This document shows, piece by piece, positions 1,258 through 4,200 of a stretch of 64,000 nt of DNA. Origin of the DNA: Candidatus Methylomirabilota bacterium (GTDB taxonomy: Bacteria > Acidobacteriota > Thermoanaerobaculia > Thermoanaerobaculales > Sulfomarinibacteraceae); contig DATHSO010000080.1 in assembly GCA_035464095.1 (NCBI GenBank), positions 4,024-68,023 on the forward strand, written 5' to 3'. Position 1 is the first letter of the stretch, and every line of letters begins with the position of its first letter. The notes under the pieces are model-generated. The model searched no databases. It was not told where the DNA came from and saw nothing but the letters and a program-made list of their open reading frames with translations. The translations under genes and the position numbers were made by a program.

Positions 1258-4200
1258 CTACCTCCTGGTCCCGCTCGCCGAGAAGTACGCGCACTCGGGA
1301 TGATGGAACACGAACGCCGACACGCTCGCCTCGGGGTCCATCATCATGCCGTCGGTCAGCGACACGCCGATCTCGTCGGGGTCGAGGAGGCGCCAGATGA
1401 TGCGCTGCTGGTCGAGGTCGGGGCAGGCCGGGTAGCCGGGGCTGTAGCGCTTGCCCCGGTAGGCGGCGCGGAAGCGCTCCTTCATGGTCAGCTCGGGCGG
1501 GTCGGGGAAGCCCCACAGCTCACGCAGCCGGCAGTGGAGGCGCTCGGCGGCGGCCTCGGCGGTCTCCACGGCGAGGGACTGCAGCGCGTGGCTGCGCAGG
1601 TACTCGCCGTTGGCGCGTTCGACGGCGGCCCGCTCCCGCACGCCCTCGCCGGCCCCGACCACGAACAGGGCCACCGTGTCGCGGCGGCCGTCGGCCGGCG
1701 GCAGCACATAGTCGGCGAGGCACAGCCCGTCGTCCTTGGGCTGGCGCGGGAACTCGAGGTCCGCCACCGGCGACGAGGCGCCGGGCTCGAAGAGGTGGAC
1801 GGTGTTGCCCTCGGCCTCGGCCTCGAGGAAGCGCCAGACCTCGGCGACCCGCATCCACGCCTCGGCCTCGGCCTGGAGCTCGCTCACCACCTCGACCACC
1901 TTGCCGAGCGTGGGATCGGCCTCGGCGAGCAGGCGCTCGAAGCTGCCCCGAAGCCCGAGGTGCTTGCCGTAGAGCATCTGCGGGTTGAGGTACGACCAGA
2001 CGTCCCGCAGGTCGTCGACCCGGCCGGTGACGTGACGGTCGAGGTTGGGCGGGGAGGGGAGGGGGAGGTCGACGCGGACCCGGGAGGAGCGTGACGGTGC
2101 CGGGTCAGACGATCTTGACGATTCGGCTTGAGCGGAATCGTCAAGATCGTCTGACCTGGCACCGCCGAGACCGTCGATCAACGACTGCCGCCGATCGGGG
2201 TCGGTCAGCCCCTGCATCACCTCGAGCCCCCGCATGGCGTCGGCGCAGTAGATCACCGGGCCGCCGTAGGCCGGGGCGATGCGCGACCGGGTGAAGCCGG
2301 CGGACAGCGCCGCGCCGCCGACCAGGACCGGGACCTCGATGCCGGCGGCTCGCAGGTCCTCGGCTGTCACCACCATCTGGTGGGCCGACTTGACGAGCAG
2401 GCCCGACAGCCCGACCGCGTCGGGCCGGTGCTCCCGGCAGGCGGCCACCAGCCGCTCGGGCGGCACCTTGATGCCCAGGTCGACGACCTCGAAGCCGTTG
2501 TTGGCGAGCAGGATCTCGACCAGGTTCTTGCCGATGTCGTGGACGTCGCCCTTGACGGTGGCGAGCACGACCAGGCCGCGGCTCGCCGTGTCGGCTTCGT
2601 CCATGTGGGCCTCGAGGTGGGAGACCGCGGCCTTCATGGACTCGGCGGACTGCAGGACCTCGGCGACGATCAGCTGGTTGGCGTTGAACAGCCGCCCGAC
2701 CTCGGTCATACCGGCCATCAGGGGGCCGTTGATGATGTCGAGGGGGGCGGCGCCCTCGGCGAGCTTGAGGTCGAGGTCGGCCGTGAGCCCTTCGCGGGTG
2801 CCTTCGATGATGAAGCGGGCGAGGCGCTCATCGAGGCAGAGCTCCTCGGTGGTGCCCCGGGGCGCGTGCTTGACGTCCCGGAAGCGTTCAGTGAGGCGGG
2901 CGATGTTGGCGCGGTTGATCGCCTCGCGCTGCTCGGCTGTTTGTCGCCTCCAATCGAGCGGGATGGGTGCCAGGTCAGACGATTCAGACGATTTCACATC
3001 GGCGAAATCGTCTGAATCGTCTGACCTGGCACCCTCGGGATGATTGAACAGCAGCGCCTCGGCGTCCCGGCGGACGTCGTCGGGGATCGAGGCGAAGCGC
3101 TCGAGGCCCTGGCTGTTGACGATGGCGAGGTCGAGGCCGGCCTTGGTGCAGTGGTAGAGGAAGACCGAGTTGACGACCTCCCGGGCCGCGGGGGGCAGGC
3201 CGAAGCTGACGTTGGAGATGCCGAGCACGGTCCGGCAGTGGGGCAGGGCCTGCTTGATGAGCCGCAGGCCCTCGATGGTCTCCACCGCGCTGCCTATGTA
3301 GCCGGCGTCGCCGCTCGCCGCCGGGAAGACCAGCGGGTCGAAGACCAGGTCGTGGTCGGCCAGGCCGTAGGTCCCGGTCAACAGCTCGTGGCTGCGCAGC
3401 GCGACCTCGAGCTTGCGCTCGCGGGTGAAGGCCTGGGCGTCCTCGGGGTGCTCGTCGATGGTGCCGACGACGGCCGCAGCCCCATAGCGGCGGAGCAGGG
3501 GGCAGATCGCCTGGAAGCGCGCCTCGCCGTCCTCCAGGTTGATGGAGTTCACGATCGCCCGGCCCTGGCAGTAGGTGAGGGCGAGCTCCACCGCCTCGGG
3601 GTCGGTGGCGTCGATCATGAGCGGCGCCTTGACGGAGCGCACGAGGCGCTCGTAGAAGGCGCGGATGTCGGCGAGCTCGTCGCGGTCGGTGGTGGTCAGG
3701 CAGACGTCGACGATCTGGGCGCCGCCGGCGACCTGGGCGCGGGCGATCTCGGCCGCCTCGTCCCAGCGCTCGCCGGCGACCAGCCGGCGGAACTTCCTCG
3801 AGCCGAGCACGTTGGTGCGCTCGCCGACGAGCAGCGGGCGGTTCTCGGGGGTCGACTCCACCAGGTCGACGCCCGAGAAGAAGACCCGGGTCGAGCGCCG
3901 CACCGGGAGCGGCCGCGGCCGCTTGCCCTCGACCATGGCGGCGATGGCGGCGATGTGGCGCTCGGTGGTGCCGCAGCAGCCGCCCACCAGATTGAGCCAG
4001 CCGGCGTCGGCGAATCGCTGGAGCTTGGCGGCCAGAGTGTCCGGGGTCTCGGGGTAGCGGCCGTCCTCGTCGGGCAGGCCGGCATTCGGGTAGCAGGAGA
4101 CCGCGGCGGCGGTCATCTCGTGCACCGAGCGCAGGTGGTCGGTCATGAACTCGGGGCCGGTGGCGCAGTTCAGGCCCACCGCCAGGGGCCCGGCGTGCTC

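What the first reader, a model, noticed from the sequence alone, without database searches (positions are those of the whole stretch)
2097..2162. Second in-frame 66-bp palindrome in metH at the B12-domain / AdoMet-activation-domain linker
- It has the same length (66 nt), the same termini (GTGCC.GGTCAGACGAT...ATCGTCTGACCTGGCAC) and the same reading phase as the copy at 2967.
- The inner arms and loop differ (cttgacgattc-ggcttgagcg-gaatcgtcaag).
- It encodes ARSDDLDDSAQAESSRSSDPAP after ...SLIDGLGG, just before the C-terminal activation domain.
- Two independent copies in one essential gene, both in inter-domain linkers and both in the same phase, argue for a mobile or recombinogenic element tolerated only where it encodes a disordered hydrophilic linker.
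Basis: partly seen in the sequence, partly recalled or inferred. Interest (0 to 1): 0.75.

Follow-up and report, generated by a model that had tools for sequence, protein, structure and literature searches.

The report
Mobile palindrome inside methionine synthase linkers
The 66-base palindrome is real and is a miniature, gene-less copy of a small transposon that landed in frame in a flexible linker of methionine synthase, a known kind of event seen here in a new bacterial group.

Summary
Window 2097-2162 is a 66-nt near-perfect palindrome (RNA hairpin -63.9 kcal/mol, z -13.6). It lies in frame in metH (minus strand, 1201 aa) and has a sister copy at 2967-3032.

It belongs to a palindromic repeat family found only in Thermoanaerobaculia/Acidobacteriota contigs. 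About 40 copies of 61-86 nt are intergenic, often 1-20 nt past a stop codon. The only in-gene copies found are in metH.

The autonomous parent was found. In L002 a 327-aa Y1 (HUH) transposase gene (NCBIfam REP-associated tyrosine transposase, 84.1 bits against a cut-off of 80) sits between one left and one right arm of the palindrome. A homolog in L024 has 30-nt inverted ends that share the GGTGCCAGGT terminus. The palindromes are therefore MITE/REPIN-like deletion derivatives of a TIR-flanked Y1 element ("TIRtron/TIRYT").

Both metH copies fall in disordered inter-domain linkers (AlphaFold pLDDT below 50 exactly over both peptides).

- **Site 1** (this finding) is recognisable in all 31 closest MetH homologs.
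- **Site 2** is patchy across those homologs.

The arms co-vary, and the two copies in one genome resemble each other more than orthologs do.

In-frame REP/RPE insertions are already described, so this is a new member of a known kind. Interest is moderate.

The parts
2097..2162 (.). 66-nt palindrome, copy at MetH site 1 (Cob/B12 domain to activation domain linker). It is read on the minus strand as (G)ARSDDLDDSAQAESSRSSDPA(P), residues about 901-923. One uncompensated A>G change lies in the outer stem.
   Evidence: hairpin -63.9 kcal/mol, z -13.6; pLDDT below 50 at model residues 899-922; same site occupied in relatives.
2967..3032 (.). 66-nt perfect palindrome, sister copy at MetH site 2 (pterin-binding/Fol domain to cap domain linker). 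It is read on the minus strand as (G)ARSDDSDDFADVKSSESSDLA(P), residues about 611-633.
   Evidence: -67.5 kcal/mol, z -16.2; pLDDT below 50 at 612-630; presence/absence polymorphism among relatives.
1258..4863 (-). metH, cobalamin-dependent methionine synthase, 1201 aa. It is the host gene of both copies.
   Evidence: Pfam S-methyl_trans, Pterin_bind, B12-binding_2, B12-binding, Met_synt_B12; identical to an NCBI MAG protein; homology to solved MetH 8SSC/8G3H.
14245..14332 (.). 88-nt palindrome with the same terminus (GTGCCAGGTAC...GTACCTGGCAC) but different inner arms (CTTGACAAACT). It is intergenic, 10 nt past the stop of the gene at 14342-16267(-). It is probably another subfamily of the same element superfamily.
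   Evidence: -65.8 kcal/mol, z -10.4. Shared terminus with the L024 TIRs. Relationship inferred from the terminus only.
35276..35363 (.). Second 88-nt palindrome of that subfamily. It is intergenic between two minus-strand genes.
43755..43827 (.). Degenerate palindrome TTGCCAGGTGCGGCATTGTGC...GCACAATGCCGAACCTGGCAC with a similar terminus. A further weak candidate lies at 43402-43497. Both are possible decayed relatives.
   Evidence: Not followed further.

Best explanation
The palindrome is a miniature, non-autonomous derivative (MITE/REPIN-like) of a small transposon. That transposon consists of a Y1 (HUH, IS200-like, RAYT/TIRYT-type) tyrosine transposase gene flanked by about 26-30-nt terminal inverted repeats. 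Deleting the gene leaves left arm + short loop + right arm, which is a 61-66-nt hairpin-forming palindrome.

Each arm has the terminus GGTGCCAGG followed by two 9-mers NNNGACGAT. The terminus is shared with other subfamilies.

By analogy with IS200/IS605 and TnpA-REP enzymes, the transposase is inferred to recognise and cut the hairpin in single-stranded DNA and move it without a target duplication. Most copies land just downstream of genes.

One copy landed in frame in the Cob-to-activation-domain linker of MetH in the ancestor of a Thermoanaerobaculia clade. It now makes up nearly the whole linker. A second copy sits in the Fol-to-cap linker in part of the clade.

The copies survive for three reasons. 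The length is a multiple of three. The reading phase is stop-free and gives an acidic, serine-rich disordered peptide. The linkers tolerate that peptide.

The palindrome is then kept symmetric, and the two metH copies are kept alike. This happens by exchange between copies or hairpin-templated correction, and/or by selection on the hairpin.

**Shown:** family membership, the autonomous parent, linker location, phylogenetic distribution, arm co-variation.

**Inferred:** the transposition chemistry, the direction of gain and loss at site 2, and the cause of symmetry maintenance.
For: - **Family.** An exact-termini scan of GTDB genomes found 11 loci, all Thermoanaerobaculia/Acidobacteriota MAGs. 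The metagenome scan found 49 more loci. Sequences are listed.
- **Coding context.** Only copies of 66 nt, plus one of 81 nt, lie in frames with a coding GC3 signature, and all of these are in metH. The 61-64 and 82-86-nt copies have no credible ORF across them.
- **Intergenic placement.** Many copies sit 1-20 nt after a stop codon. Six of ten upstream ORFs tested are bona fide Pfam genes.
- **Autonomous parent in L002.** The order is arm 5309-5334, Y1 ORF 5368-6351, arm 6353-6378, with the same compensated variant in both arms.
- **Transposase identity.** Pfam Y1_Tnp E 1.5e-10. NCBIfam NF047646 REP_Tyr_transpos 84.1 bits against a cut-off of 80. The best PDB hit is E. coli TnpA-REP 4ER8, with HUH and YIxxNP motifs aligned.
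- **Other transposase loci.** Homologs lie within 1-4 kb of element copies at about four further independent places: L010, L025, L005 and the L024/L040 pair, which appear to be one place in opposite orientation. L024 has 30-nt TIRs CGGTGCCAGGT.... L010 has a full palindrome 126 nt upstream of the gene.
- **Linkers.** pLDDT is below 50 only at 612-630 and 899-922, apart from a few very short segments. PDB alignments break at query 607-675, and site 1 aligns to the Cob-Act linker.
- **Age and dynamics.** Site 1 is recognisable in P0001-P0031, from intact to decayed. Site 2 is patchy on an NJ tree. L066 carries an internal-deletion remnant. L062 carries an element-associated rearrangement.
- **Symmetry.** 15 of 24 deviations from consensus in nine site-1 orthologs are compensated, including non-synonymous ones. 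Across the family, 96.5% of cells are paired, 9 of 27 pairs change on both sides, and 0 of 500 shuffles reach the observed score.
- **Concerted evolution.** L068 has the same 83-nt variant at both sites. Inner-32-nt identity is 0.79 within genomes against 0.64-0.69 between orthologs.
- **Literature.** Intragenic in-frame REPs/RPEs, TIR-flanked Y1 genes ('TIRtrons') and an Acidobacteria TIRYT group are described (PMC3733652; PMC6006769).
Against: - No transposase gene and no further TCAGACGAT-type copy lie in the 64-kb window itself. The cognate enzyme in the source genome is therefore unproven.
- Copy number per genome looks low: at most 5 exact-termini copies per MAG. Classical REPs are far more abundant, but MAG fragmentation and the strict pattern bias this count downward.
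- No target-site signature or duplication could be defined.
- No clean pre-insertion allele was found at site 2. Empty alleles read ..GD-GAP-xDW, and their flanks differ from those of filled alleles. Gain versus loss is therefore unresolved.
- No activity of this transposase subclass on such palindromes has been shown here. Quentin et al. found no REP-like partners for their subclass 2.1.
- All in-gene copies are in one gene. That could hint at a metH-specific role rather than pure tolerance.
Confidence: 0.8

Rival explanations
1. The hairpin is a host-selected cis-element of metH. An example would be an mRNA structure at domain boundaries that pauses ribosomes for domain-wise folding, or that controls mRNA processing or stability. 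On this view its mobile-element origin is secondary or irrelevant to why it is kept.
For: - The arms are better conserved than neutral sites: arm wobble identity 0.79 against flank wobble identity 0.63, while the loop is only 0.45.
- Compensated changes occur even where they alter the peptide.
- Both copies sit exactly at domain boundaries.
- All in-gene copies found are in metH.
Against: - Many close relatives have let the site-1 palindrome decay (P0002, P0012, P0017, P0026-28). Most lack site 2 altogether while keeping an intact metH.
- The same palindrome is mostly intergenic and tied to a transposase.
- Symmetry can be restored by copy-to-copy conversion or quasi-palindrome template switching, without selection.
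- No expression data are available.
Confidence: 0.12
2. The conserved feature is the peptide, an acidic Ser/Asp-rich flexible linker selected at protein level. The DNA palindrome is an incidental consequence or a relic.
For: - Codon positions 1/2 of the arms are 0.90 identical among orthologs.
- The peptide replaces a linker of similar length in more distant MetH proteins.
- The segment is disordered.
Against: - Compensated double changes change the peptide yet keep base pairing. Examples are RSDD to RPND paired with SSDL to SLGL, and R to G paired with L to P in L063.
- Identical DNA occurs in about 40 non-coding places.
- A peptide constraint cannot create a 31-bp perfect inverted repeat.
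Confidence: 0.04
3. The palindrome is a chance similarity or an assembly artefact (fold-back chimera).
For: None beyond the general risk of palindromes in short-read assemblies.
Against: - z-scores are -13.6 and -16.2, and no shuffle folds as well.
- The same elements sit at the same metH sites in independent NCBI, JGI and ENA assemblies.
- The reading frame is preserved.
Confidence: 0.01

Closest known systems
Intragenic REPs and Rickettsia palindromic elements (RPEs): palindromic repeats inserted in frame in functional genes (Ogata et al. 2000, from my own knowledge; Di Nocera et al. 2013, PMC3733652)
   Same: - A short palindromic repeat is inserted in frame in a housekeeping gene and adds 20-30 residues.
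- It is sometimes inserted twice in one ORF.
- The bulk of the family is extragenic and close to gene 3' ends.
- Orthologous insertions are shared between species.
   Different: - The sequence family is different and the host is different (Thermoanaerobaculia).
- The element is not GTAG-tagged, and CGTC is not at its end.
- Here it is one long 27-31-bp stem rather than an 8-14-bp REP stem or a 100-150-bp RPE-1.
- Here an autonomous parent with matching ends is identified.
- In this sample the only host gene is metH.
TIRtrons / TIRYT: TIR-associated tyrosine transposases (Di Nocera et al. 2013), largely subclass 2.1 of TnpA-REP-like proteins (Quentin et al. 2018, PMC6006769)
   Same: - A Y1 HUH transposase related to RAYTs is flanked by long terminal inverted repeats instead of REP hairpins (L002, L024).
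- TIR-only copies are dispersed in the genome.
- The protein is long (about 320 aa) with a C-terminal extension.
- A distinct Acidobacteria group is reported in the literature.
   Different: - The published GGGGWSAS TIR motif is absent. These TIRs start GGTGCCAGG.
- No Pfam HTH or DnaA_C domain was detected in the C-terminal half.
- Assignment to subclass 2.1 was not tested phylogenetically.
REPIN-RAYT systems (Bertels and Rainey 2011, PMC3116915)
   Same: - A hairpin-forming doublet is mobilised in trans by a RAYT-type gene.
- The element has long vertical persistence.
- Sequence variants form sub-populations.
- The NCBIfam RAYT model is met by the L002 protein.
   Different: - A REPIN is two short REP hairpins in inverted orientation with a spacer. 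Here the arms are not themselves hairpins.
- There is no GTAG tag.
- The apparent copy number is low.
- REPINs are extragenic.
IS200/IS605 insertion sequences and their palindrome-associated miniature derivatives
   Same: - The transposase has the Y1 HUH fold.
- There is no target-site duplication.
- A single-strand hairpin is expected to be the substrate.
   Different: - IS200/IS605 ends are different, subterminal, imperfect hairpins and not terminal inverted repeats.
- There is no tnpB gene.
- The transposase carries RAYT-type motifs (WQ, YIxxNP).
Bacterial MITEs (Correia/NEMIS, Nezha, RUP and others)
   Same: - The element is a non-coding internal-deletion derivative with the TIRs of an autonomous element.
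- It can be co-transcribed and can sit in ORFs.
   Different: - Classical MITEs derive from DDE transposons and make target duplications.
- They are typically 70-300 bp long.

Membership tests
REP/REPIN-RAYT | Short palindromic repeat present at many, mostly extragenic, loci and often next to gene 3' ends | tested here: met
   About 40 intergenic copies with unrelated flanks. Many lie 1-20 nt after stop codons of verified genes. Copies seen per MAG are few, at most 5.
REP/REPIN-RAYT | RAYT-type Y1 transposase gene flanked by the repeat | tested here: met
   L002 has arm - ORF - arm. L010 has a palindrome 126 nt upstream of the gene. NF047646 scores 84.1 bits against a cut-off of 80 for L002, but 72.5 (below the cut-off) for L024.
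REP/REPIN-RAYT | Conserved GTAG (or CGTC) tetranucleotide at one end of each REP | tested here: not met
   The ends read GGTGCCAGG. There is no GTAG. CGTC occurs only inside the arms (ATCGTC), not at the end.
REP/REPIN-RAYT | A REPIN is two inverted REPs, each itself a small imperfect hairpin, separated by a spacer | tested here: not met
   The arms (GTGCCAGGTCAGACGATTCAGACGAT) are tandem 9-mers and are not self-complementary. The whole element folds as one continuous stem.
TIRtron/TIRYT | Y1 transposase gene bounded by long terminal inverted repeats | tested here: met
   L002 has 26-nt arms at 5309-5334 and 6353-6378. L024 has 30-nt TIRs at 409-438 and 1489-1518, 90% complementary.
TIRtron/TIRYT | Dispersed family of TIR-only repeats in the same genomes | tested here: met
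   The MAG carrying L002 also has solo palindromes in L002, L006 and L009.
TIRtron/TIRYT | GGGGWSAS motif in the TIR (majority type in Di Nocera 2013) | tested here: not met
   The motif is absent from all arms. The paper also lists TIRs unrelated to that motif.
TIRtron/TIRYT (Quentin subclass 2.1) | C-terminal HTH domain (Bac_DnaA_C, HTH_23 or HTH_28) | tested here: inconclusive
   A C-terminal extension of about 190 aa is present, but there is no Pfam HTH hit even at E<=10. No phylogenetic placement was done.
MITE | No coding capacity, with ends matching an autonomous element | tested here: met
   61-66 nt made of left arm + 8-14-nt loop + right arm, identical to the ends of the L002 unit.
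MITE | Target-site duplication | tested here: not met
   No direct repeat flanks the copies. The flanks tend to extend the palindrome instead (G...C, CATCG...CGATG). This is expected for Y1 elements.
IS200/IS605 | Distinct subterminal imperfect hairpins at the left and right ends, often with tnpB | tested here: not met
   The ends are inverted repeats of each other, and the single ORF fills the unit.
Rickettsia palindromic elements | Sequence membership in an RPE family | not tested
   No RPE sequences were compared. The resemblance is functional (in-frame palindrome in an essential gene) and rests on the literature.
Known structured RNA (Rfam) | Match above the gathering score | tested here: not met
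   Only miRNA-precursor models matched, at 21-43 bits against cut-offs of 57-90. These are generic hairpin matches.

The most novel reading that the evidence does not exclude
The element-encoded peptide has been exapted as the MetH Cob-to-activation-domain linker, replacing the ancestral linker of similar length. The two in-gene palindromes are actively kept symmetric and alike. This would happen by transposase- or hairpin-templated conversion between the two metH sites, or by selection for a very stable mRNA hairpin at domain boundaries that paces translation of this five-module enzyme. That would make it a persistent, functional partnership between a Y1 mobile element and an essential gene, rather than a tolerated scar.
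Probability: 0.12. Interest if true: 0.6.

Novelty: new member of a known kind. Interest (0 to 1): 0.4.

Why it matters
- **Uncharacterised group.** The finding adds a clear case, in the poorly studied Thermoanaerobaculia (Acidobacteriota), of a palindromic mobile element living in frame inside an essential enzyme.
- **Parent identified.** Unlike most such cases, the autonomous parent, a TIR-flanked RAYT-like Y1 transposase, can be pointed to. This gives a concrete substrate-enzyme pair for a transposase subclass whose DNA partners are poorly defined in the literature.
- **Annotation.** The 22-residue acidic inserts in MetH are element-derived linker material and not new domains. The hairpins, at -64 to -67 kcal/mol, are likely to cause assembly and indel errors; L001 has a 67-nt copy that breaks the frame.
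- **MetH function.** MetH works by large domain rearrangements (my own knowledge). Natural variants with and without 22 extra residues in the Fol-Cap linker could serve as a comparison set.

Tried and rejected
- **Phage origin.** A scan of IMG/VR viral contigs with the broad family pattern gave 0 hits.
- **Known RNA family.** Rfam gave only sub-threshold miRNA-hairpin matches.
- **Other host proteins, by peptide search.** A 49-aa concatenation of two variants gave no hit at E<=10, probably because of low complexity and database size. This test is uninformative, not negative. The host range rests on the DNA scans only.
- **Target-site duplication or insertion motif.** None was found. The flanks mostly extend the palindrome.
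- **Recombination of a larger segment carrying site 2.** Flank identity within filled alleles, within empty alleles and between them is 0.866, 0.838 and 0.841. The rest of the protein gives 0.834, 0.810 and 0.822, so there is no clear haplotype structure. P0001 against its sister P0002 drops from 0.93 to 0.82 near site 2, but that region is variable anyway. The result is inconclusive.
- **Simple derivation of the empty allele.** The empty site-2 allele (..GD-GAP-xDW) could not be derived from the filled one by a single deletion or precise excision. The expected products, NYPGAIPRDW or GAPIPRDW, are not observed. P0011 reads NYPG-PGG-IPRDW.
- **Transposase in the window.** tblastn with the L002 protein found none.
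- **'Same phase' as strong evidence.** Rejected. In 66-nt copies one phase is closed by TGA codons in ATCGTCTGA, so only two phases are open.
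Full report
**1. The observation**

Window 2097-2162 is a 66-nt near-perfect palindrome. Its sister at 2967-3032 is a perfect one. The repeat finder reports arms of 34 nt at 94% complementarity and 31 nt at 100%. Folded as RNA on the coding strand they give -63.9 and -67.5 kcal/mol, z -13.6 and -16.2, and none of 200 shuffles folds as well.

Both lie in one ORF on the minus strand, 1258-4863. It encodes a 1201-aa methionine synthase with all five Pfam modules: S-methyl_trans 21-311, Pterin_bind 347-583, B12-binding_2 678-751, B12-binding 764-854 and Met_synt_B12 997-1196. 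The protein is identical to a MetH deposited for an NCBI MAG.

The core GGTCAGACGAT occurs nowhere else in the window.

**2. It is a repeat family, and most members are not in genes**

An exact-termini scan of one genome per GTDB species returned 11 loci. All are from Thermoanaerobaculia/Acidobacteriota MAGs. A broader pattern returned 49 metagenome loci and nothing from viral contigs.

The copies share this plan: GGTGCCAGG, then two 9-mers NNNGACGAT, then a variable 8-14-nt loop, then the mirror image. Lengths are mostly 61-67 nt, with classes of 81-86 nt.

A frame and GC3 analysis shows which copies lie in real coding frames. Only copies whose length is a multiple of three (66 nt, one of 81 nt) qualify, and every one of them is in a metH ortholog, always in the same phase. 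The remaining ~40 copies have no credible ORF across them.

Many intergenic copies sit 1-20 nt beyond a stop codon. Six of ten such upstream ORFs were confirmed as real genes: NifU_N, EPSP synthase, NifU, class-V aminotransferase, EutN and FixG-like. This is the placement described for REP elements (PMC3733652).

**3. The autonomous parent**

In L002 a 327-aa ORF (5368-6351) matches Pfam Y1_Tnp at E 1.5e-10. It scores 84.1 bits on the NCBIfam equivalog 'REP-associated tyrosine transposase', above the cut-off of 80. Its best solved relative is E. coli TnpA-REP 4ER8, with the HUH and YIxxNP motifs aligned.

The ORF lies between one left arm (5309-5334, GTGCCAGGTCAGGCGATTCCGACGAT) and one right arm (6353-6378). 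Both arms carry the same compensated A>G variant.

Homologs of this protein lie within 1-4 kb of palindrome copies at about four further independent places: L010, L025, L005 and the L024/L040 pair, which appear to be one place in opposite orientation. That is far more than expected for a gene that is usually single-copy.

In L024 the gene is bounded by 30-nt inverted repeats, CGGTGCCAGGTTCCAAGATCCTGAGATTTT. They share the GGTGCCAGGT terminus but not the inner sequence. In L010 a full palindrome lies 126 nt upstream of the gene.

The 61-66-nt palindromes are therefore internal-deletion derivatives, arm + loop + arm, of a TIR-flanked Y1 element. The shared terminus with different inner arms also explains the other palindromes in the window at 14245-14332 and 35276-35363 (GTGCCAGGTACGGCGACTTGACAAACT...). 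They are probably another subfamily.

**4. Where the metH copies sit, and their history**

An AlphaFold2 model built on a 40-sequence alignment has mean pLDDT 81.6. Its only long segments with pLDDT below 50 are 612-630 and 899-922. These are exactly the two element-encoded peptides, and both are coil.

phmmer alignments to full-length Thermus MetH (8SSC, 8G3H) break between query 607 and 675. They align site 1 to the Cob-to-activation linker.

In an alignment of 120 homologs, the site-1 peptide GGARSDDSDDxxxxxSSESSDLAP[ST]RSSR is recognisable in all 31 closest proteins (75% identity or more). It ranges from intact to heavily decayed. More distant MetH proteins have an unrelated Pro/Ala-rich linker of about the same length. 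The copy in this finding is therefore old and now essentially is the linker.

Site 2 differs. It is filled in 12 of the 31 proteins, partly deleted in one (L066: GGTGTCAGGTCAGACGATTCCGAC|CCGGCACC) and empty in the rest. Filled and empty alleles are interspersed on an NJ tree built without the linker columns, which implies at least six gains or losses, or recombination.

I could not decide the direction of change at site 2. Empty alleles read ..GD-GAP-xDW, which recalls the element's coding ends GA...AP. They are not the product of a simple excision.

One relative (L062) shows a half-copy duplication plus a 12-codon deletion next to site 1. The element therefore also promotes rearrangement.

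**5. Nucleotide-level behaviour**

Among nine orthologous site-1 copies, 15 of 24 departures from the consensus in the arms are compensated on the other arm. Some of these changes alter the peptide. For example, RSDD to RPND pairs with SSDL to SLGL, and L063 has four compensated changes in the outer 18 nt.

Identities among these copies are:

| Positions compared | Pairwise identity |
|---|---|
| Arm wobble positions | 0.79 |
| Arm codon positions 1/2 | 0.90 |
| Loop (14 nt) | 0.45 |
| Flanking codons, wobble positions | 0.63 |

Across 31 distinct family members, 96.5% of stem cells are paired. Nine of 27 pairs change on both sides, and no shuffle of 500 reaches the observed covariation. Two caveats apply: the outer columns were fixed by the search pattern, and the sequences are related.

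In this reading phase wobble positions pair with wobble positions. That makes synonymous compensated changes possible. The most variable stem position (TCA/TCC/TCT paired with TGA/GGA/AGA) is exactly such a pair.

The two copies in one genome tend to share variants:

- L068 has the same 83-nt form, with an extended inner stem, at both sites.
- L034 has the CCCAAC variant at both sites.
- L011 and L060 share loops between their two sites.
- Mean inner-32-nt identity is 0.79 within genomes against 0.64-0.69 between orthologs (five genomes, so this is indicative only).

This points to exchange between copies or hairpin-templated correction. Selection on the hairpin cannot be excluded.

**6. Mechanism**

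*Shown:* the family, its transposase-bearing parent, its extragenic bias, the linker positions, and the co-variation.

*Inferred* from established knowledge of IS200/IS605 TnpA and E. coli TnpA-REP (own knowledge; PMC6006769):

- The Y1 enzyme acts on the single-stranded hairpin formed by the paired ends.
- It probably reads the conserved GGTGCCAGG foot, with the 9-mers acting as subfamily determinants.
- It moves the element without a target duplication.

Survival inside metH needs three things: a length that is a multiple of three, a stop-free phase, and a site that tolerates a floppy acidic segment. In 66-nt copies one phase is closed by TGA, so sharing a phase has a chance of about one half.

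**7. Comparison with what is known**

In-frame palindromic repeats in functional genes are known from Rickettsia RPEs and from GTAG/CGTC REPs in several phyla. These include dimers encoding 20-30 residues and double insertions in one ORF (PMC3733652).

Y1 genes flanked by long TIRs ('TIRtrons', TIRYT), with dispersed TIR families and a distinct Acidobacteria group, are described in the same paper. They are linked there and by Quentin et al. to subclass 2.1.

The present element meets the TIRtron and MITE-like criteria. It fails the GTAG tag, the REP-doublet structure and the GGGGWSAS motif. It is best filed as a new TIRtron-derived palindromic family that works like a REPIN or RPE.

**8. Verdict**

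This is a new member of a known kind. Interest is 0.4. The parent-derivative pair and the long, concerted persistence of two copies in the linkers of an essential multi-domain enzyme are worth a note, but nothing here is categorically new.

Noticed in passing
window 14245-14332 and 35276-35363: Two 88-nt palindromes share the GTGCCAGGTAC terminus with the metH element but have different inner arms (CTTGACAAACT). Extra copies of the TTGAC(A/G)AACT motif lie just outside each palindrome. Both are intergenic and downstream of minus-strand genes. They are probably a second subfamily, which may be the one currently resident in this genome.
   Followed up: partly
window 41677-41834: An AT-rich island sits in a 70% GC genome between convergent genes. 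It holds 13.6 tandem copies of the heptamer AATTGAG (96% matches) preceded by an inverted AT-rich stretch. Its function is unknown.
   Followed up: no
window 43402-43497 and 43755-43827: Two degenerate palindromes have GTGCCAGG-like ends. They lie in a region that also contains a longer direct repeat (gtcccgg.ggaggcgc...cccgcgc..cccggaggcgcg follows each). They lie at the upstream end of the ORF call 41837-43810(-), which may be over-extended, and just before the gene at 43932(+).
   Followed up: no
whole window / P0001: NCBI labels the source MAG 'Methylomirabilota bacterium'. However, every close MetH relative with a name, and all 11 genome hits for the element, are Thermoanaerobaculales/Acidobacteriota. 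The contig's taxonomic label or binning is probably wrong.
   Followed up: partly
L001 4096-4162: A metH ortholog carries a 67-nt copy at site 1 that shifts the reading frame. This is either an indel error at a very stable hairpin in a long-read MAG or a true pseudogene.
   Followed up: no
L062 about 4024-4200 (P0003): There is an element-associated rearrangement in metH. An extra left half-copy (GCCGGGTCAGACGATTTTGACGATTTCACCGG) replaces about 12 codons upstream of site 1 and pairs with the distal right arm.
   Followed up: partly
L011 and L021, right edge of site 2: A 9-nt tandem duplication GCACCCATC (APIAPI) abuts the element end.
   Followed up: no
L003, L007, L014: Three independent intergenic copies sit directly after Fe-S cluster assembly genes: NifU_N, a NifU-like gene, and a class-V aminotransferase of NifS/IscS type. 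This may be coincidence or a shared operon hot spot.
   Followed up: no
L010 1514-1600: Another palindrome with a related but distinct terminus (GGGTGCCACGT...ACGTGGCAC) lies 45 nt from a TCAGACGAT-type copy and about 1.4 kb from the Y1 gene match at 2973-3593.
   Followed up: no
metH neighbourhood (window 5080-7656; L062, L065): The neighbouring gene is conserved: a multihaem cytochrome fused to a cytochrome-b-like membrane domain. In many relatives a 612-aa S-methyl_trans+MTHFR fusion gene lies downstream of metH.
   Followed up: no
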